A DNA stretch of 10,701 nucleotides from the IMG/VR virus record IMGVR_UViG_3300027917_003468, positions 64,001 to 74,701 of that record; one strand, given 5' to 3'. Position 1 is the first letter of the stretch; each line of letters begins with the position of its first letter. The notes under the pieces were generated by a model. That model was not told where the DNA came from and ran no database searches. It saw only the letters and a program-made list of their open reading frames with translations. Positions 2,319-7,967 of the stretch are shown one piece after another. This stretch comes from a virus. Taxonomy: Duplodnaviria; Heunggongvirae; Uroviricota; Caudoviricetes. The position numbers and the translations under genes were made by a program.

Positions 2319-3190
2319 TGGGGAAAAGAAAATCTTCGGAACAGGGCCAAATTCGTAATGCGATATTGAAAGGCTCCCTGAAAAAATCCCTGTCTCTACC
2401 ACCGACAGGGATTGTAGGACTTGATGGCAAAGTAATTGAACGCCCTATCAAACGTCTACCTAAACTGGATAAGGAAGAGAAGATTTTAGATATATATGCT
2501 CCCTGTTCTTGGCCTTTTGTATACAGAAAATTCATGGTCAATTTCTGTCGAATTATACATCCAAAAATGATGGTGCCTCTAAGGAAATTTGGTATTACAG
2601 ACTATTTTTGGGATATCAACTCAAAATTTCCAGTCTGTAAAAATAGAAATACAGCTGTCTTGAAAGCTAGAAAATACAATGCTGACTATATGATGTTTAT
2701 TGATGCTGATATGCAACATCCACCAGATATTGTATACAGACTGGCAAAACATGAACTTCCTATTGTTAGTGGTATGTATTTCCATCAAGCACCTCCACAT
2801 CTGCCAGTTTGTTATCGACACAAAGAAGCTCATAATTACGTTCATTGTTGGGATTATCCAAAAGACAAGTTATTTGAAGTTGATCTGATTGGAATGGGAT
2901 GTGTACTTGTGGATATGAGAGTGTTTGATGATATTGATATGCCTTATTTCAAGTATGATTCGAGTCGTGAGGATGGAATTGTTGATGTGACTGAAGATGT
3001 AGAATTTTGCAAAAAGGTTCGAGCTGCTGGATATAATATTATGGTTGATCCTAGTGTTCAATGTACTCATATAAATATTGATGACGTCGCACAAACACAT
3101 TTCGAAGCCTATATGGAACAGTATCAAACTTATACTGCGTTAATGGAGAAATTTGGAGATGGAACAATTAGCAATATTAGTGATGAATAG
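2318..3190 (+). CDS. GT-A fold glycosyltransferase (GT2-like)
   Basis: DxD motif in YMMFIDADMQHPPD, then SGMYF, IGMGCVLVDMRVF and TEDVEFC, a motif series typical of GT2-like enzymes. Basic N-terminal extension. Confidence 0.82.
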   Translation: MGKRKSSEQGQIRNAILKGSLKKSLSLPPTGIVGLDGKVIERPIKRLPKLDKEEKILDIYAPCSWPFVYRKFMVNFCRIIHPKMMVPLRKFGITDYFWDINSKFPVCKNRNTAVLKARKYNADYMMFIDADMQHPPDIVYRLAKHELPIVSGMYFHQAPPHLPVCYRHKEAHNYVHCWDYPKDKLFEVDLIGMGCVLVDMRVFDDIDMPYFKYDSSREDGIVDVTEDVEFCKKVRAAGYNIMVDPSVQCTHINIDDVAQTHFEAYMEQYQTYTALMEKFGDGTISNISDE

Positions 3191-3455
3191 CATGTTTTTA
3201 GACCTGCTGTTTTTCCTGTCAGTGTATGGAATAGCAACCATTATTTCTTCTGAATACATCTTTATGCCAGTAATTGATAAATTTAAAAGATTTGAAAAAC
3301 TACACTATCTTCTCACCTGTAATAAATGTATGTCAGTCTGGGTTGGAGGATTAGTATCTTTCTTCTACTGGTCAGTTCTCACTCCGGTCCTTGATGCTGC
3401 AATCTGTTATGTCGTTACATCTGCACTCAATAAATTCCTTGACGATCCAGAATAA
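3183..3455 (+). CDS. Small membrane protein, DUF1360-like
   Basis: Hydrophobic helices flank LLTCNKCMSVWVGG, which resembles the DUF1360 LLxCxxCxSVW motif. The start is more likely ATG 3183 or 3192, coupled to the GT2 stop at 3190, than 3153. Confidence 0.55.
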   Translation: MNSMFLDLLFFLSVYGIATIISSEYIFMPVIDKFKRFEKLHYLLTCNKCMSVWVGGLVSFFYWSVLTPVLDAAICYVVTSALNKFLDDPE

Positions 3456-3462
3456 TTAGGGA

Positions 3463-3491
3463 TTGACTTGCGTATAGACTAATGATATTAT
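3463..3491 (+). promoter_or_regulatory. Sigma70-type promoter upstream of the protease gene
   Basis: TTGACT (3463-3468), 17-nt spacer, TATTAT (3486-3491), with an extended -10 TG at 3483-3484. Confidence 0.7.
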
Positions 3492-3524
3492 AGGATGTAA
3501 AATAGTGGATTAGCACCAAAGACT

Positions 3525-4955
3525 ATGCGGAGTTTAGAGGAGACGGTAGCGATGGTACGAAAAGCACTTACATTCACCGAAGAGGAGATCACAGCTTTTC
3601 ACGAAGAGATGCTATACCCCGTAGTAAGGATACAAGCAAAAAGCGCACTTGGATCTGGTTCTATTATTTACAGTAAGCCAAAACAAGATATCCCATCAGA
3701 GTATGAAACCTATATTCTGACGAATCACCATGTAATTGATTCGGCCATTACACAGGTTGAAAAGTGGTCGAGCCTTCTCCAAAGAAAATATAAGGGAGAT
3801 GTCTTTGCTGATGTTGATGTGGAAATTTTCGAGTACCAGTATGAATCTTGGGAACCCACCCACCATACTATTCCAGGTGAGATTGTAACCTACGACCAGG
3901 ACCAGGATTTAGGATTGGTTCGCCTAAAGACGGTAAAGCCAATGAAATATGTCGCCAGGATGCTGCCAAAAGGTGAATCAAAAAATAGACTGCGTATGTT
4001 TATGACAACGCTTACAGTCGGATCCGGTCTTGGTGAAGAGCCTTTCCCCTCTATCCCAGGTATGTTAGCCAACTTGAATCGGAGAATTGCAAACACAGAT
4101 GGGAAAGGTTACACATTCCACCTGAGTAGTTCACCCTCAATTTTTGGGAATTGTTTAGTAGGAGATTCGTTGGTCTCTATGTCAGATAATACGGTCAAAC
4201 CCATAAAAGAAATAAAAGAAGGTGACTTTGTATGGTCATGTTCAAAGGGAGGTGTGAGTTCTGATAACAAAGTCGAAAGATTTATTGAGTCTGGAGAAAA
4301 AGATATATATGAAGTAAAAACTAGAACTTGTTTATTAAGAGCATCTGATAATCATCCAGTTCTAAAGTTCAGCAAGCGCCCTGCACAATATAATCATCCT
4401 CCTGTTGATATATGGTTTAAATGGGCGAAAGTAGAAGATTTAGCAGATGGAGATTTAATCGCTGTTTTTGATGGGCAGATTGGTTGCTCTGGGAAGATGC
4501 AAAAACAAGAATTAAATATTGAGGGATTTGACAACAAAAACATTCCAACTGGACTGCATCTAGAGAAGGTCGAAAAAATGAAGGTAGTGGGTAAAGAAAA
4601 AACTTATGATATTAAACTGGATCACCCCCACAACTTCTTTGCAGATGGAGTTCTAGTACATAATAGTGGTGGGGCCTGTTTCCTTACAGACACGCATGAG
4701 ATGATTGGGATCCCTTCTAGAATCGCAGTTACTGGCAGATTAGGTAGTGATGCAATTACACATATGGGCTACATTATTCCTATTGAACGTGTATATCGAT
4801 TCTTCAAAGCCGAACTATTATATTTCCTCTACGATTCAAATTACACATCTGATCAGTGTTTTGATCTACGGAAAAAGAAGCGGGAGGAAGATGAGAAACG
4901 AATGGCAATAGATATTAGTAGGAATGGTGAGGTAGATACAAGTAATAACAGTTAA
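3525..4955 (+). CDS. Trypsin-like (S1/Trypsin_2) serine protease precursor containing an intein
   Basis: GSGSII; triad His in YILTNHHVI (CAT 3729-3731); Asp in YDQDQDLGLVRL; nucleophile motif IFGN|SGG is restored after intein removal. Followed by E.IGI....A.....GY.IPIE, typical of this fold. The start may be ATG 3552 (AGGAG at 3538-3542). Confidence 0.87.
   Translation: MRSLEETVAMVRKALTFTEEEITAFHEEMLYPVVRIQAKSALGSGSIIYSKPKQDIPSEYETYILTNHHVIDSAITQVEKWSSLLQRKYKGDVFADVDVEIFEYQYESWEPTHHTIPGEIVTYDQDQDLGLVRLKTVKPMKYVARMLPKGESKNRLRMFMTTLTVGSGLGEEPFPSIPGMLANLNRRIANTDGKGYTFHLSSSPSIFGNCLVGDSLVSMSDNTVKPIKEIKEGDFVWSCSKGGVSSDNKVERFIESGEKDIYEVKTRTCLLRASDNHPVLKFSKRPAQYNHPPVDIWFKWAKVEDLADGDLIAVFDGQIGCSGKMQKQELNIEGFDNKNIPTGLHLEKVEKMKVVGKEKTYDIKLDHPHNFFADGVLVHNSGGACFLTDTHEMIGIPSRIAVTGRLGSDAITHMGYIIPIERVYRFFKAELLYFLYDSNYTSDQCFDLRKKKREEDEKRMAIDISRNGEVDTSNNS
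4152..4664 (+). mobile_element. Mini-intein (Hint domain, 171 aa, no endonuclease)
   Basis: Block A CLVGDSLVSMSDNTVKPIKEIKEGDFV starts at TGT 4152. Block B LRASDNHPVL. Blocks F/G KTYDIKLDHPHNFFADGVLVHN end at AAT 4662-4664. The +1 residue is Ser (AGT 4665-4667). No LAGLIDADG blocks. Confidence 0.93.
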
Positions 4956-5004
4956 TTGGTATAAGGTATGGATAACCAATATCTTTGTTCAAAGGTTACT
5001 ACTA

Positions 5005-5589
5005 ATGAGGGTAGCACTTCTCAATGCGCACACGAGCTATGCAGTAGGAGCGTCCGAAACGCTTGGCGGAGTAGTATATTCTGAGTATAAGCTATCTTCT
5101 CGAATAAATAAAGAACTACAGAATAAATTACTAAATACTGGCAACGATGCTTATATTGTGGATGGATCAAGTGAGAAGCCTTATAGTCGATCATTACGCT
5201 ATAAGGCTTCTTTTGTTAATATGACAGGTGCTGATATAGCTATCGAAACGCACTTCAACTCTGCGTTTAGTTTGGCTTTAGCAAAACATAGTAGTGGTTT
5301 AGAGGTACTTTACAGTGATAAGAAAGAAGGAAATAAAGCCCTAGCCGAAAAAATGGTGGAGGGTTTGAGTGCTTATTTACCTTTTAAGCTTCGTAGAGGA
5401 GGTACAGGACTGTATGTGAGGAATAAACTTTACATCCTTACCAATATTGATTGCCCTACTATAATCAACGAGATTTGTTTTTTATCCCACCCTATTGATC
5501 GATTGTATCTACTCCACCCCAATTCAACTAGAGTGATAGCCAATGCAATATTAAATGGAATATCAAAATATCAGTCAGTTTCCAATTAG
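5005..5589 (+). CDS. N-acetylmuramoyl-L-alanine amidase (Amidase_3), probable endolysin
   Basis: Zn-ligand and catalytic pattern: LLNAH, SEY, ADIAIETHFNS, SGLEVLY, LYIL...PTIINEICFLSHPID. Catalytic domain only, no cell-wall-binding domain. Confidence 0.85.
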   Translation: MRVALLNAHTSYAVGASETLGGVVYSEYKLSSRINKELQNKLLNTGNDAYIVDGSSEKPYSRSLRYKASFVNMTGADIAIETHFNSAFSLALAKHSSGLEVLYSDKKEGNKALAEKMVEGLSAYLPFKLRRGGTGLYVRNKLYILTNIDCPTIINEICFLSHPIDRLYLLHPNSTRVIANAILNGISKYQSVSN

Positions 5590-5603
5590 GGGAAGGAGAA
5601 TCA

Positions 5604-6011
5604 ATGGGCGGTGATGGAATATTAAGTAGAGACGATCTTTTTCTTCTAATGGAAGCATATCGAAATAATATCGAACTCAGTACTACATTATTGCAACAAC
5701 AAAATCAAATAACTGAACAGCTCAAAAAAACAACAATGCAACAAGAAAAGATATGCACTTCAATAGATAAAGTAGCCAATAAGTTAGATACATGTACAGA
5801 TGAGCTACATAAGGCGCACCAGGAAATGGTAGTAGAAAAAACAAGGTGCCAAGCACAATCATCAAAAGAACATGGATCAATTATTCATCGGGTTAACCTT
5901 GTCTATGTTGGAATTGGTGCCTTACTCGTCCAATTTTTAGCATTTGTTATAGATGTATTTGCTAAACTAGAACTTATCCGTAAAATTGCCGATCATTTGG
6001 GAGTTGGATGA
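5604..6011 (+). CDS. Coiled-coil protein with C-terminal transmembrane helix, holin-like
   Basis: GGAAGGAG RBS. Gln/Leu-rich coiled coil, then hydrophobic LVYVGIGALLVQFLAFVIDVF. Directly follows the amidase. The holin call rests on position and topology only. Confidence 0.5.
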   Translation: MGGDGILSRDDLFLLMEAYRNNIELSTTLLQQQNQITEQLKKTTMQQEKICTSIDKVANKLDTCTDELHKAHQEMVVEKTRCQAQSSKEHGSIIHRVNLVYVGIGALLVQFLAFVIDVFAKLELIRKIADHLGVG

Positions 6012-6856
6012 TGCCGCCTGAGCTTACAATATTCAATAACATTCCAGAGCTTTTATTTTACAAAGCTATCGAACATAGCCCGAGTACTGTGGTAATAACA
6101 GATATAGAAGGAAATATTATCTATGTAAACCCAAAATTTTCTGAAGTAACCGGCTATCATTACAAAGAGGTTCTAGGTAAAAATCCACGCCTATTAAAAT
6201 CAGGTAAAATGCCAAAACAACAATACCAAAAAATGTGGGAAACGATCTCAAAAGGAGGTATTTGGCGAGGAGAATTTCTAAACTGTGCGAAAGATGGCTC
6301 ATACTATTGGGAAGTAGCATCTATTGCCCCTGTAAAAGAAGGCAACAAGATAACTAATTATATAAAAGTTGCAGAGGTAGTTACAGATCTTAAACAGACA
6401 ATTATCAACTTGTGGAATATCTTAGATTATTCAAATTATTTTGTAGTTGTGTTGGATAAGAGTCTTGAAATTAGGCTCTGTAACCGCATGCTGGCTAAAA
6501 CACTTGGATTCGAGAAGGAAAATGAGTTGATAGGAAGAAAGTGGTTTGAATTTATACCAGAGACTACACAAGATATTATCAAAATTGTACATAGAGAAAC
6601 AACAGATAGAGAAGGACAAATAATGGAATCTATCAGTGAAGTTATAGCTGCCAATGGAAAAGTTGTAACAGCCAAATGGTTTAATTCTTTCGTAAATAGT
6701 GAATTGGATTGGGTCTTTAGTTTGGGCGTCCCACTTAAGATAGATGCCCAAAAAAATATTGATAATGTCAGAGAATTTTACAAACAGGTACTGGCCAAAG
6801 ATAGAACCACAATCGATGCAATAAAGAAGTATATTAACAATGAGGAAACTGGATAA
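6008..6856 (+). CDS. Tandem PAS-domain protein without an output domain
   Basis: PAS1: AIEHSPSTVVITDIEGNIIYVNPKFSEVTGY...EVLGKNPRLLKSG...MWETI..G.IWRGEFLNCAKDGSYYW...IAPV. PAS2: ILDYSNYFVVVLD...IRLCN...TLGF...ELIGRKWFEFIP. Short helical C-terminus. ATGA overlap with the upstream gene. Confidence 0.9.
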   Translation: MMPPELTIFNNIPELLFYKAIEHSPSTVVITDIEGNIIYVNPKFSEVTGYHYKEVLGKNPRLLKSGKMPKQQYQKMWETISKGGIWRGEFLNCAKDGSYYWEVASIAPVKEGNKITNYIKVAEVVTDLKQTIINLWNILDYSNYFVVVLDKSLEIRLCNRMLAKTLGFEKENELIGRKWFEFIPETTQDIIKIVHRETTDREGQIMESISEVIAANGKVVTAKWFNSFVNSELDWVFSLGVPLKIDAQKNIDNVREFYKQVLAKDRTTIDAIKKYINNEETG

Positions 6857-7175
6857 AATTGAAGTTTTTACTAATGCATTACGTTATAGCGATCCATACT
6901 ATGAATGGCGAGATGATGTTATTAAAGAACAGGGAAAACGCTGCCAAATATGCGGATCAGATATAAAAGTGCATGTACATCACCTCAAGTATTTTAAATC
7001 TATAGTAAAAGAATTCCTGTCTCACTACGATCATTTAGATGCAATAAAAGATAAGGACGAACTACTGGATTGCGCTGAGTGGTATGAAGATTTTTGGGAT
7101 CCTAATAATGGTTTAGTGCTATGTAATAACTGCCATGAGTTTGAACATCCTAATATACTACTGGAGGATGAGTAG
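6840..7175 (+). CDS. HNH endonuclease
   Basis: WRDDVI...RCQICG...VHVHHLK...NNGLVLCNNCHEFEH, a complete Zn-binding HNH motif set. Confidence 0.88.
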   Translation: MRKLDKIEVFTNALRYSDPYYEWRDDVIKEQGKRCQICGSDIKVHVHHLKYFKSIVKEFLSHYDHLDAIKDKDELLDCAEWYEDFWDPNNGLVLCNNCHEFEHPNILLEDE

Positions 7176-7364
7176 GTGCCAACACTTCGTAAAGGGGAAA
7201 AACGGTCTAGTTATATCTCTCGCTGAATATCCCAATCAGTGAGGGAAGGTATTCCTCAGAAACAAGCTATAGGGCGCTGCCATGGAATGTATAAAAGTGG
7301 GCTGAAAAAACGTAGAAGGAAAACAACTAAAAAATCCAGACGTAAAAGAGCTAGACGGAGATAG
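7176..7364 (+). CDS. Small basic protein (62 aa) with in-frame TGA at codon 17; candidate selenoprotein, alternatively a pseudogene
   Basis: GGAGG RBS at 7163-7167 and GTG at 7176. Translation MPTLRKGEKRSSYISR(TGA 7224-7226)ISQSVREGIPQKQAIGRCHGMYKSGLKKRRRKTTKKSRRKRARRR, TAG 7362-7364. It fills the gap between neighbouring genes exactly. Absent from the ORF track. Confidence 0.65.
7240..7258 (+). promoter_or_regulatory. Bacterial SECIS-like hairpin downstream of the in-frame UGA
   Basis: UGAGG-(G bulge)-AA [GGUA] UU-CCUCA. The apical loop starts 21 nt after the UGA and is A-U closed with GGU, similar to the E. coli fdhF SECIS loop A[GGUC]U. Confidence 0.45.
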
Positions 7365-7366
7365 AA

Positions 7367-7492
7367 GTGCCTACGAATAAAAATTTTGTAACCAAAAATA
7401 AAGTGGCTTGTTATGTCCCTACACTATGGCCAGGAAGAAAAAAGAGGACGAAAAGGAAACGTTATTTAGTGAAAAGATCGACAAGAAGATAG
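7367..7492 (+). CDS. Small basic peptide (41 aa)
   Basis: GGAG at 7357-7360 and GTG at 7367. MPTNKNFVTKNKVACYVPTLWPGRKKRTKRKRYLVKRSTRR, TAG 7490-7492. Same MPT start and basic tail as the upstream gene. Too short to be sure. Confidence 0.45.
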   Translation: MPTNKNFVTKNKVACYVPTLWPGRKKRTKRKRYLVKRSTRR

Positions 7493-7502
7493 TAAAAATC
7501 AT

Positions 7503-7531
7503 TTGTAAACTAGAGATGATTAGAGTATAAT
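7503..7531 (+). promoter_or_regulatory. Sigma70-type promoter upstream of 7575
   Basis: TTGTAA (7503-7508), 17-nt spacer, TATAAT (7526-7531), in an intergenic gap. Confidence 0.6.
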
Positions 7532-7574
7532 TGTAACTAGTATAACATCTAACAGAAGAGGTGAAGAGCTGATC

Positions 7575-7967
7575 ATGCAGACTAAAATACCCAAAACCCA
7601 AAAGCGCTTCGTATACAACACTTCAACGGGTGAATATGAAAGTAATATTACAGGTTGTGGAGTACCTTCCGTTCCGTACATCATAAATCTAGCCAGTGTC
7701 TCTACGAGTAATTGGAACTCTTCTTGGCAAATTCCATTAGGATGTAGAGCTGTACGAATCTCCAAAAGAGGAAAAAATAACTCGTATCGAGTATCAGCAG
7801 ATGCAGCGGGGGCTACTTACATTACAGTAGGTGGTACGGAAGTTTTTGACCTTGGAGAAATGTTTGGACCAGAAGATCCAACGGTACTCTATTTTCAGTG
7901 CGTAACTGCACCGGATACGATTGAAATTATGTATTGGCTAGATGGTTCAGAATGTCATACACCTTAA
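7575..7967 (+). CDS. Hypothetical beta-rich protein, paralog A
   Basis: GAGGTG RBS. Colinear similarity to 8020-8586: TGCGVPSV, W.IP.GCRA.RI, R.SADAAGATYIT, FGPE....LYFQC, YW.DG.ECHTP. Confidence 0.8.
   Translation: MQTKIPKTQKRFVYNTSTGEYESNITGCGVPSVPYIINLASVSTSNWNSSWQIPLGCRAVRISKRGKNNSYRVSADAAGATYITVGGTEVFDLGEMFGPEDPTVLYFQCVTAPDTIEIMYWLDGSECHTP

What the first reader, a model, noticed from the sequence alone, without database searches (positions are those of the whole stretch)
5005..6856. Output-less tandem PAS sensor translationally coupled to the lysis cassette
Amidase, holin-like gene and PAS-PAS gene are contiguous, with an ATGA overlap at 6008-6011. PAS1 resembles, by eye, the FAD-binding PAS of NifL-type redox sensors (EH.P....ITD....I.Y.N..F...TGY...EVLGKN...L..G......Y..MW..I.....W.G...N..KD). 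There is no kinase, GGDEF, EAL or HTH domain, only a roughly 35-aa helical tail. NifL itself signals by protein-protein contact. Inference: this could be a redox- or ligand-sensing lysis-timing regulator acting on the membrane protein, or a decoy for host two-component signalling.
Basis: partly seen in the sequence, partly recalled or inferred. Interest (0 to 1): 0.7.

Follow-up and report, generated by a model that had tools for sequence, protein, structure and literature searches.

The report
Phage sensor paired with membrane-anchor protein
This uncultured phage carries, next to its cell-wall-cutting enzyme, a conserved two-gene unit: a tail-anchored membrane protein and a sensor protein. 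The sensor's front end is a flavin-type PAS domain here and a phospho-receiver, a GAF domain or nothing in related phages, so these phages probably tune host lysis to a signal from inside the cell, though nothing has been tested at the bench.

Summary
Amidase (5005-5589), a one-TM coiled-coil gene (5604-6011) and a PAS-PAS gene (6008-6856) are contiguous, with ATGA at 6008-6011. PAS1 is closest to the FAD-binding PAS domains of MmoS, NifL and Aer.

The interpretation needs revising in three ways.
- The conserved unit is not amidase plus sensor. It is the pair of tail-anchored membrane protein and second PAS plus C-terminal helix. This pair was adjacent in all 27 or more phage loci examined, whichever gene was used as the query.
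- The second PAS plus helix is the family-defining core, so it is in effect the output. The part in front of it varies: about 58 of 110 representatives have a receiver-like domain (REC), 35 have none, 11 have PAS, and 5 have GAF. None has a kinase, GGDEF, EAL or HTH domain. The window copy lost one PAS by an in-frame deletion.
- A better canonical holin candidate is the 2-TM gene at 3153-3455. The tail-anchored protein has the architecture of SPP1 gp24.1 / PBSX XhlA, but no sequence homology to them.

In different lineages the pair abuts different lysis-type genes: Amidase_3, DUF5675, DUF1353, or a holin. This supports a role in lysis, but the mechanism is inferred.

It is not a recent kinase fragment: dN/dS is 0.18-0.37. 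No paper describing it was found. Earlier notes of this scan describe the same kind of module on other DNA.

The parts
3153..3455 (+). Small 2-TM membrane protein (100 aa), the candidate canonical holin of the cassette
   Evidence: Two hydrophobic segments and an acidic C-terminus. Matches phrog_781, function unknown. Its orthologue lies directly upstream of the amidase in all relatives. No similarity to SPP1 gp26.
5005..5589 (+). N-acetylmuramoyl-L-alanine amidase (endolysin)
   Evidence: Pfam Amidase_3 E 2.8e-20; phrog_435 endolysin E 3e-24. Orthologues at 46-50% identity lie at the same place in 11 loci.
5604..6011 (+). Tail-anchored coiled-coil membrane protein (135 aa), the invariant partner of the sensor
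   Evidence: No Pfam or PHROG family. A profile search found 46 relatives, all 'hypothetical'. One long helix 9-132, pLDDT 86.5. Followed by a PAS-C gene in every locus examined.
5622..5702 (+). Conserved N-terminal motif of the membrane protein (residues 7-33: L.R.DLFLLMEAYRN.IELSTTLL.QQ)
   Evidence: The only strongly conserved stretch across 20 diverse family members. Proposed, not shown, to be the docking site for the sensor.
5892..5963 (+). C-terminal transmembrane segment (residues ~97-120)
   Evidence: Kyte-Doolittle peak of 2.27. In several relatives the protein ends 2-4 residues after this segment.
6008..6011 (+). ATGA stop/start overlap between the membrane-protein gene and the sensor gene
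   Evidence: Read directly. The same junction is ATGA, TAATG, TAAATG or a gap of 25 nt or less in all 18 loci checked.
6008..6064 (+). Remnant N-cap of a lost first PAS domain (residues 1-19)
   Evidence: Aligns best to residues 1-24 of the three-PAS homologues. At most 4 of 1000 shuffles reach the score. The closest relatives, at 77%, 68% and 66% identity, all carry the extra PAS.
6053..6388 (+). PAS1: flavin-type (NifL/MmoS/Aer-like) input domain (residues 16-127)
   Evidence: PAS_9 E 2.2e-21. PDB sequence hits 3ewk, 2gj3 and 8dik. Foldseek to 2gj3: TM 0.91. Trp77 and Asn92 are invariant.
6389..6742 (+). PAS-C: divergent second PAS, the first part of the family-defining core (residues 128-245)
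   Evidence: Conserved in all partners of the membrane protein, whatever lies N-terminal to it. Only weak PDB sequence hits (PAS kinase 1ll8, E 0.001).
6746..6850 (+). C-terminal helix, the second part of the core (residues 247-281; motif R..Y/F....I...DR..I)
   Evidence: Helix in the model. Arg255, Asp265 and Ile269 are at least 90% conserved in 110 representatives. Generic multi-PAS kinases match the profile only up to position ~135, that is, without this tail.
6840..7175 (+). HNH endonuclease overlapping the sensor gene by 17 nt. A neighbour specific to this clade, not part of the wider module.
   Evidence: HNH_2 E 7.5e-5; phrog_8048 E 4.9e-9. Present after the PAS gene in the window's clade only.

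Best explanation
Positions 5604-6856 encode a phage-specific two-gene signalling module that sits in the lysis cassette.

Gene 1 is a tail-anchored protein: a long cytoplasmic coiled coil with a highly conserved N-terminal motif and a single C-terminal membrane helix. This is the architecture of the SPP1 gp24.1 / PBSX XhlA holin partner.

Gene 2 is a cytoplasmic sensor. Its invariant C-terminal half (a divergent PAS plus a long helix) is proposed to bind the cytoplasmic coil of gene 1. Its N-terminal half is a swappable input domain, here a flavin-type PAS.

In the proposed model, the state of the input (redox state of a flavin here, phosphorylation or a small ligand in relatives) changes how the sensor holds the membrane protein. 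That would advance or delay the point at which the membrane protein cooperates with the 2-TM holin candidate (3153-3455) to let the amidase reach the wall.

Shown:
- the gene pair, its strict adjacency and tight coupling;
- the modular inputs;
- purifying selection;
- adjacency to lysis-type genes in several lineages;
- flavin-PAS affinity of PAS1.

Inferred:
- physical binding of the two proteins;
- membrane topology;
- flavin binding;
- any effect on lysis, and its direction.
For: 1. Pairing. A search of IMG/VR with the membrane protein alone gave 14 loci. In all of them the next gene is homologous to residues ~130-275 of the window's sensor. Searches with the PAS core gave 14 rows in two scans. 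Two of these were new contigs (L105, L106), and both have the membrane gene upstream. The only hit in 185,579 species genomes, a MAG contig, also has the pair. The same holds in 10 or more loci of the window's clade.

2. Junctions. The two genes overlap or lie 25 nt or less apart everywhere.

3. Modularity. Of 110 representative clusters that carry core plus tail, Pfam finds Response_reg in 34, GAF in 5 and extra PAS in others, and never a kinase, GGDEF, EAL or HTH domain. Local jackhmmer classes are REC-like 58, none 35, PAS 11, GAF 5. 36 of 58 REC-likes keep the phospho-Asp, an acidic residue and the Lys. Well-supported branches force at least 6 changes of input class.

4. Lysis context. The pair sits next to non-homologous genes:
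   - Amidase_3 directly upstream in the window's clade;
   - DUF5675 directly downstream in L095, L105 and L106, proposed to be C82-peptidase-like lysins in bioRxiv 10.64898/2026.04.11.717860;
   - DUF1353 directly downstream in L086, L087 and L090, the family of the PLA2 TtaP (PMC11525133);
   - a holin (phrog_36209, 608, 13712) four genes downstream in L089 and L094;
   - a sub-threshold Peptidase_C92 match three genes upstream in L099.

5. Precedent. SPP1 gp24.1 / PBSX XhlA has a single C-terminal TM helix, acts only together with a 2-TM holin, and in SPP1 the two genes flank the endolysin (PMC6316719, PMC5589764). The window has the same layout.

6. PAS1. It matches MmoS, NifL and Aer. It keeps the F-alpha Trp (W77) and the flavin-binding Asn (N92), both invariant in 20 relatives. 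Residue roles are taken from PMC9668731 and bioRxiv 10.1101/2023.04.23.537977.

7. Selection. dN/dS is 0.09-0.37 for both genes.
Against: - No experiment exists, and no interaction model could be run because the tools offer no multimer prediction.
- The membrane protein has no detectable homology to XhlA/gp24.1. PF10779 finds nothing in the record at E<=10, and hhalign gives probability 0.3%. The resemblance is architectural only.
- In about five lineages (L085, L088, L093, L096, L098) no lytic enzyme was recognised nearby. There the pair lies among tail-fibre or tail-spike genes or unknown genes.
- DUF5675 and DUF1353 are not proven lysis enzymes in phages.
- The flavin N5-proximal residues of Aer/MmoS (His53, Arg115) are Pro60 and Ala122 here, and NifL Glu70 is Pro60. 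So flavin binding and any redox switch are unproven.
- The charges flanking the TM helix do not by themselves settle the topology.
- Many phage genes are tightly packed, so coupling alone is weak evidence.
Confidence: 0.45

Rival explanations
1. The pair is a membrane-tethered signalling switch for something other than lysis. The tail-anchored protein would hold the sensor at the membrane, like an anti-sigma factor holding its partner. A signal would release the sensor to act on another phage or host target, for example late gene expression, superinfection exclusion or envelope modification.
For: The strict pairing and the swappable inputs fit any partner-switch design. In several lineages the neighbours are tail-fibre genes, glycosyltransferases or unknown genes, not lysis enzymes. 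The window's phage carries many glycan-modifying genes.
Against: The sensor has no DNA-binding or enzymatic part in any of 110 representatives. The repeated adjacency to four unrelated lysis-type genes would then be a coincidence.
Confidence: 0.22
2. The sensor is a decoy or phosphate sink that interferes with host two-component signalling. PAS1 would heterodimerise with a host kinase, and REC versions would drain phosphate. The membrane protein next door would be an unrelated lysis gene.
For: PAS1 is 55-60% identical to PAS domains of cellular kinases and cyclases. Cellular multi-PAS kinases align to residues 20-275 at 32-36%, with HisKA following about 20 residues after the aligned part in one case. 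Most REC versions keep the phospho-acceptor residues.
Against: The invariant part is not the input domain. It is the phage-specific PAS-C plus helix, and a third of the family has no input domain at all. The membrane partner co-occurs in every locus.
Confidence: 0.1
3. The tail-anchored protein is an ordinary lysis component (holin partner or spanin-like). The PAS protein would be a non-sensing scaffold or chaperone for it, using PAS folds only for dimerisation and binding no cofactor or signal.
For: PAS-C has no recognisable cofactor motif and only weak PDB sequence hits. Some REC-likes are degenerate: 22 of 58 lack a key residue. 35 of 110 have no input domain.
Against: Repeated acquisition of bona fide sensor domains (REC with intact pocket, GAF, flavin-type PAS with invariant Trp/Asn) argues that input matters.
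Confidence: 0.13
4. The PAS gene is a recently captured, truncated fragment of a host sensor kinase with no function of its own.
For: There is no output domain, and the tail resembles a PAS-to-DHp linker helix.
Against: The family is diverse and conserved: core identity 27-39% across 17 loci, about 110 clusters at 50% identity, and dN/dS 0.18-0.37. It has a fixed phage partner gene.
Confidence: 0.02

Closest known systems
SPP1 gp24.1/gp26 and PBSX XhlA/XhlB two-component holins (PMC6316719, PMC5589764)
   Same: A coiled-coil protein with a single C-terminal TM helix, together with a 2-TM holin-type protein, encoded around the endolysin gene. In the window's relatives the order is 2-TM gene, amidase, tail-anchored gene.
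   Different: No sequence homology. The window's protein is longer and has its own conserved N-terminal motif. XhlA/gp24.1 has no sensor partner. Cooperation with the 2-TM protein is untested here.
T4 lysis inhibition: holin T with antiholins RI (periplasmic) and RIII (cytoplasmic) (PMC8385771, PMC11413866)
   Same: A one-TM holin-type protein whose activity is set by a separate phage protein that responds to a signal. RIII acts from the cytoplasmic side.
   Different: RI and RIII have no PAS, REC or GAF domains, and the signal is superinfection. Here the regulator is built from classical bacterial sensor domains and would read an intracellular state. No homology was tested or expected.
FAD-binding PAS domains of NifL, MmoS and Aer (2gj3, 3ewk, 8dik; PMC9668731)
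   Same: PAS1 is their closest solved relative by sequence and fold. It keeps the adenine-stacking Trp and the Asn that bonds flavin N3/O4. NifL also signals by protein contact.
   Different: The residues next to flavin N5 differ (Pro60 and Ala122, against His/Arg in Aer and MmoS, and Glu in NifL). The domain feeds a phage-specific PAS-C/helix module, not a kinase, HAMP domain or NifA-binding domain.
Output-less PAS proteins and single-domain response regulators that act by protein contact (short LOV proteins, CheY; from general knowledge)
   Same: Sensor domains plus a terminal helix, with no enzymatic or DNA-binding output.
   Different: Those have no dedicated, co-encoded membrane partner and are cellular, not phage, proteins.
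Phage VP882-type VqmA-Phi (PAS plus HTH) quorum-sensing receptor (PMC12802170)
   Same: A phage-encoded PAS sensor that ties the timing of host killing to a signal.
   Different: VqmA-Phi is a transcription factor of temperate phages controlling the lysogeny-to-lysis switch. Here there is no HTH, and the module sits in the late lysis cassette.

Membership tests
PAS domain superfamily | Significant match to Pfam PAS models and a PAS fold | tested here: met
   PAS_9 E 2.2e-21 and PAS E 4.2e-20 for residues 18-127. The model shows two five-stranded PAS folds. Foldseek top hits are tandem-PAS structures.
Flavin (FAD)-binding PAS (NifL / MmoS / Aer clusters) | Conserved Trp on helix F-alpha that stacks on the adenine, described as the key FAD residue in bioRxiv 10.1101/2023.04.23.537977 | tested here: met
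   Trp77 aligns with Aer W70 and NifL W87 (alignments). It is invariant in 20 relatives.
Flavin (FAD)-binding PAS (NifL / MmoS / Aer clusters) | Asn that hydrogen-bonds flavin N3/O4 (Aer N85, MmoS N164; PMC9668731) | tested here: met
   Asn92, in GEFLN, aligns with it. It is invariant.
Flavin (FAD)-binding PAS (NifL / MmoS / Aer clusters) | N5-proximal signalling residues (Aer H53 and R115, MmoS H132 and R195; NifL Glu70 from my own knowledge) | tested here: not met
   The aligned positions are Pro60 and Ala122 (alignments, translation). PMC9668731 calls the His/Arg pair uncommon among flavin PAS domains, so this does not exclude flavin binding.
Flavin (FAD)-binding PAS (NifL / MmoS / Aer clusters) | Flavin actually bound | not testable with these tools
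   Needs purified protein and a UV-visible spectrum.
XhlA / gp24.1 holin partner (PF10779) | Sequence match to the family model | tested here: not met
   PF10779 finds nothing in the whole record at E<=10. hhalign of the family profile against SPP1 gp24.1 gives probability 0.3%. The only lead is an Atlas feature score of 0.90.
XhlA / gp24.1 holin partner (PF10779) | N-terminal coiled coil, a single C-terminal TM helix, and a gene beside the endolysin and a 2-TM holin | tested here: met
   Searches (architecture; layout), compared with SPP1 genes 24.1-25-26 (PMC6316719).
XhlA / gp24.1 holin partner (PF10779) | Lethal and lytic only when co-produced with the 2-TM holin | not testable with these tools
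   Needs co-expression in a laboratory strain.
Sensor histidine kinase (or a fragment of one) | HisKA/DHp and HATPase_c domains | tested here: not met
   Absent from the window protein and from all 110 family representatives.
Response regulator receiver (applies to relatives, not to the window copy) | Receiver fold with the phospho-acceptor Asp, the acidic pair and the conserved Lys | tested here: met
   Pfam Response_reg in 34 of 110 members, best E 2.7e-23. 36 of 58 REC-like N-termini keep Asp57, an acidic residue and Lys109. The window protein has PAS instead.
New family proposed here: PAS-C/helix sensor with tail-anchored partner | C-terminal divergent PAS plus helix (W224, F225, G240, R255, D265, I269 at least 90% conserved), encoded directly after a tail-anchored protein with the DLFLLMEAYRN-type motif | tested here: met
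   Window. Pairing in all loci.
Known anti-phage defence or abortive-infection systems (PADLOC) | Match to a PADLOC model | not tested

The most novel reading that the evidence does not exclude
A widespread, undescribed class of phage lysis regulator. A cytoplasmic sensor protein with plug-in input domains (flavin PAS, phospho-receiver, GAF) would directly grip the cytoplasmic coil of a tail-anchored holin component. Uncultured phages would then set the moment of host lysis post-translationally, according to the host's redox or energy state or the output of its own kinases.
Probability: 0.4. Interest if true: 0.85.

Novelty: new variant of a known kind. Interest (0 to 1): 0.7.

Why it matters
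Lysis timing is a main determinant of phage fitness. So far it is known to be set by holin-intrinsic clocks and, in T4-like and a few other phages, by antiholins that respond to superinfection.

A sensor built from classical bacterial signalling domains and wired directly to a holin-type membrane protein would mean that many environmental phages read the host's physiological state before lysing it. That state could be redox or energy level through a flavin, or the activity of host kinases through a receiver.

The interchangeable inputs on one conserved output also make the module a natural test bed for how PAS and REC domains transmit signals by protein contact. It could serve as a compact part for signal-controlled lysis in laboratory strains.

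Even if lysis is not the target, this is a new conserved phage protein pair, about 110 clusters at 50% identity, with no family assignment.

Tried and rejected
The contexts of the closest homologues (P0005, P0008) therefore could not be fetched by identity, and loci came from pattern scans instead.
- GenBank/INPHARED phages hold no relative. The full sensor hits only Aer-type PAS genes in P1/SJ46-like records. A short-form sensor and a membrane-protein relative give no match. No cultured phage is available as a model.
- The first viral scan, with the single protein, found nothing. Alignments were needed.
- The broad core alignment A6 was too diverse for pattern scanning, so sub-alignments A8 and A9 were used.
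- XhlA homology was tested and rejected. Homology of the 2-TM protein to SPP1 gp26 was rejected.
- A profile of PAS-C against PDB sequences gave only weak generic PAS hits. The Atlas search on PAS-C gave generic PAS clusters.
- The promoter and terminator scan was uninformative: no terminators in 2900-7700.
- The maximum-likelihood tree of the core did not finish its careful search. The quick tree is poorly resolved, so only the minimum numbers of changes forced by well-supported branches are used.
- The MmoS structure paper (PMC2707821) is not held, so residue roles come from the Aer paper.
- Literature searches for a phage PAS/holin or tail-anchored module found nothing relevant.
- The 'recent kinase fragment' reading is rejected (see rivals).
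- The HNH gene is rejected as part of the module, because it follows the sensor only in the window's clade.
Full report
**What is in the window**

The window is most of a 14,152-base IMG/VR virus record, estimated 18% complete. All long ORFs are on the + strand. Between a major capsid gene (988-1794) and later structural-looking genes lie, in order:
- a 100-aa protein with two hydrophobic segments (3153-3455);
- a protease gene carrying an intein (3525-4955);
- an Amidase_3 endolysin (5005-5589);
- a 135-aa protein with a single C-terminal hydrophobic segment (5604-6011);
- a 282-aa PAS-PAS protein (6008-6856);
- an HNH endonuclease (6840-7175).

The ATGA overlap at 6008-6011 is there. No terminator-like site occurs between 2900 and 7700.

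**The sensor protein**

Pfam finds a strong PAS at residues 18-127 and only a weak second PAS, with no catalogued output domain. The AlphaFold2 model (mean pLDDT 76.5) gives PAS (27-124), a linker helix, PAS (145-242) and a 35-residue helix, 247-281.

PAS1's best solved relatives by sequence are the FAD-binding PAS-A of MmoS (1.7e-31), NifL PAS1 (1.3e-19) and Aer PAS (6e-16). Foldseek aligns it to NifL PAS1 with TM 0.91 and rmsd 1.3 A.

According to the Aer structure paper (PMC9668731) and a PAS census (bioRxiv 10.1101/2023.04.23.537977), the hallmark of FAD-binding PAS domains is a Trp on helix F-alpha that stacks on the adenine, plus an Asn that bonds flavin N3/O4. The aligned residues here, Trp77 and Asn92, are invariant in 20 relatives.

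The residues next to flavin N5 are different. Aer His53/MmoS His132 is Pro60 here, and Aer Arg115/MmoS Arg195 is Ala122. As I recall, NifL Glu70 also aligns with Pro60. A flavin is therefore likely but unproven, and the switching chemistry cannot be copied from NifL or Aer.

**A lost domain**

The nearest homologues (77%, 68% and 52-47% identical) are about 398 aa long and carry one more PAS in front. A partial relative at 66% identity also has the extra 125 residues.

The first 19 residues of the window protein align best to the very N-terminus of these three-PAS forms (IFNNIPELLFYK against IFDNVPILLFYK). At most 4 of 1000 shuffles reach that score. They then run straight into the cap of the next PAS. 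The window copy is thus an in-frame deletion derivative, so the first PAS is dispensable.

**The real conserved unit**

In the window's own clade (12-13 metagenomic or viral loci) the order is fixed: 2-TM gene, amidase, one-TM gene, PAS gene, HNH. The only interruptions are mobile:
- the intein-bearing protease in the window;
- an RRXRR-HNH homing endonuclease between the amidase and the one-TM gene in three loci.

The one-TM protein has 46 relatives. All are unannotated. They share a striking N-terminal motif (L.R.DLFLLMEAYRN.IELSTTLLEQQ), a variable coiled coil and a TM helix at or within 2-15 residues of the C-terminus.

Scanning IMG/VR with this protein alone gave 14 loci from otherwise unrelated phages. 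In every one the next gene is a homologue of the window's sensor. The homology, however, is to residues ~130-275, the second PAS plus the terminal helix, and not to PAS1.

The reverse scans, with the PAS core, brought two further contigs. Both have the membrane gene upstream, even though their motif is too divergent for the first scan to have found them. The single hit among 185,579 species-representative genomes, a MAG contig, has the pair as well. The stop-to-start distance is an overlap or at most 25 nt in all 18 junctions inspected.

**Swappable inputs**

A profile of the core, searched against 1.84 billion representative proteins, found about 110 clusters in which core plus tail lies at the C-terminus. 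Generic multi-PAS kinases match only the PAS part, without the tail.
- Pfam, on the 110 members: Response_reg in 34, GAF in 5, additional PAS in others, and no kinase, GGDEF, EAL or HTH domain in any.
- Local iterative searches: 53 REC-like (plus 5 REC+PAS), 35 with no input domain (some may be truncated ORFs, but seven complete loci confirm the class), 11 PAS, 4 GAF (plus 1 GAF+PAS).
- 36 of 58 REC-likes keep the phospho-acceptor Asp, an acidic pocket residue and the conserved Lys.
- On a quick, weakly resolved tree of the core, the well-supported branches alone force at least six changes of the REC label, six of the short label and three of the PAS label.

The protein is therefore not so much output-less as built on a family-specific output (PAS-C plus helix) fed by interchangeable inputs. 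Both genes are under purifying selection: dN/dS is 0.18-0.37 for the sensor gene and 0.09-0.33 for the membrane-protein gene. This, together with the depth of the family, rules out a recent kinase fragment.

Cellular multi-PAS kinases align to residues 20-275 at 32-36% identity. In one of them HisKA follows about 20 residues after the aligned part. An old origin from the sensor part of a kinase is plausible.

**Is it a lysis module?**

The amidase adjoins the pair only in the window's clade. In other lineages the pair abuts other lysis-type genes:
- DUF5675 directly downstream in three contigs (E 1e-28 to 5e-31). A 2026 preprint classes this domain with C82 peptidases among candidate lysins (10.64898/2026.04.11.717860).
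- DUF1353 directly downstream in three contigs. This is the family of the phospholipase A2 TtaP, which sits beside a muramidase in the typhoid-toxin islet (PMC11525133).
- A holin matched by three PHROG holin families four genes downstream in two contigs, with several N-terminally anchored proteins in between.
- A sub-threshold Peptidase_C92 match three genes upstream in the MAG contig.

In about five lineages nothing lytic was recognised. There the pair follows tail-spike or tail-fibre genes. That is a common place for lysis genes, but it proves nothing.

**What the membrane protein resembles**

The Atlas search gave an XhlA-type cluster as a lead (score 0.90). Tested directly, there is no homology. 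PF10779 finds nothing in the record at E<=10, and hhalign against SPP1 gp24.1 gives probability 0.3%.

The architecture and layout, however, match the documented two-component holins of SPP1 and PBSX. There, gp24.1/XhlA has a single C-terminal TM helix, gp26/XhlB is a 2-TM holin, each is harmless alone, and together they kill. In SPP1 the two genes flank the endolysin (PMC6316719, PMC5589764). In the window's relatives the 2-TM gene, the amidase and the tail-anchored gene are arranged in just this way. The membrane protein is modelled as one continuous helix, 9-132 (pLDDT 86.5), as expected for a coiled-coil-forming tail anchor.

**Most likely mechanism**

I propose that the tail-anchored protein is a holin component or holin modulator whose long cytoplasmic coil is bound by the PAS-C/helix half of the sensor. 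The input domain (a flavin PAS here) would then alter that grip, shifting the time of membrane permeabilisation and amidase release.

The cytoplasmic orientation is inferred from three points:
- the tail-anchor design;
- the absence of a signal peptide;
- the cytoplasmic nature of REC, GAF and flavin-PAS partners.

The closest functional precedent is T4 lysis inhibition, where antiholins RI and RIII bind holin T in response to superinfection (PMC8385771, PMC11413866). Those proteins have no sensor domains of this kind.

I put this reading at about 0.45. The rivals are a partner switch aimed at another target (0.22), a non-sensing scaffold (0.13), a decoy for host signalling (0.10) and a dead kinase fragment (0.02).

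**Novelty**

I found no relative in 50,697 GenBank phage records, no Pfam or PHROG family for the membrane protein or for the core as such, and no paper describing a phage PAS or REC protein paired with a tail-anchored or holin-type protein.

Earlier notes of this scan describe the same kind of module on other DNA. One reports a receiver-PAS protein 'always co-inherited with a new membrane-anchored helical protein' in a lysis cassette. Another is a note on the very contig I reached as L098. These are AI notes, not independent evidence. They agree with what I derived from the sequence data.

**Limits**

- There is no interaction model, no experiment and no host assignment.
- The neighbour census is based on about 30 loci.
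- The 'short' class may include fragments.

Noticed in passing
L002:5778-7136 (also L014:1105-2463, L015:313-1671): A 452-aa RRXRR-HNH homing-type endonuclease (PF14239 E 7e-56, phrog_119) is inserted exactly between the amidase and the tail-anchored gene in three related contigs. It is absent from the window and the other relatives.
   Followed up: partly
window 3525-4955: The intein-bearing trypsin-like protease gene has no counterpart in any of the ~12 syntenic relatives. In those, the 2-TM gene abuts the amidase. The protease gene is therefore an insertion into the lysis cassette of this phage only.
   Followed up: partly
L086:5891-6472, L088:6372-6872, L089, L091, L094, L095, L105, L106 (C-termini): Short-form sensors end in a conserved Cys motif (T-C-x-P, for example STCNP, RTCDP, KTCKP, DTCKP) a few residues from the C-terminus. 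The window's clade lacks it. Its meaning is unknown.
   Followed up: no
window 6840-7175: A small HNH endonuclease gene overlaps the sensor gene by 17 nt (about 50 nt in L005-L009). It follows the sensor in every member of the window's clade but not in other lineages.
   Followed up: partly
L105:3447-4172 and L106:5962-6687: A 241-aa protein with an N-terminal Gly-rich hydrophobic segment followed by a coiled coil lies right after the DUF5675 gene. No Pfam family. It could be a holin or a spanin-like protein.
   Followed up: no
L099 (MAG contig CAYYIP010000005.1, labelled Hyphomicrobiales): The only hit for the module in species-representative genomes lies among phage-like genes whose products are unusually rich in Asn, Lys and Ile. 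It may be a prophage or a mis-binned viral contig, so the label is not a safe host assignment.
   Followed up: no
P0166 (570 aa), P0167 (510 aa), P0186 (543 aa): Some family members stack three sensor domains (for example GAF plus PAS plus PAS) in front of the same core. The number of inputs therefore ranges from 0 to 3.
   Followed up: partly
L089:6315-6890 and L094:5997-6572: A 191-aa protein with a weak enoyl-CoA hydratase/ClpP-fold PHROG match (phrog_1128, E 5e-10) sits between the sensor and the holin in two contigs.
   Followed up: no
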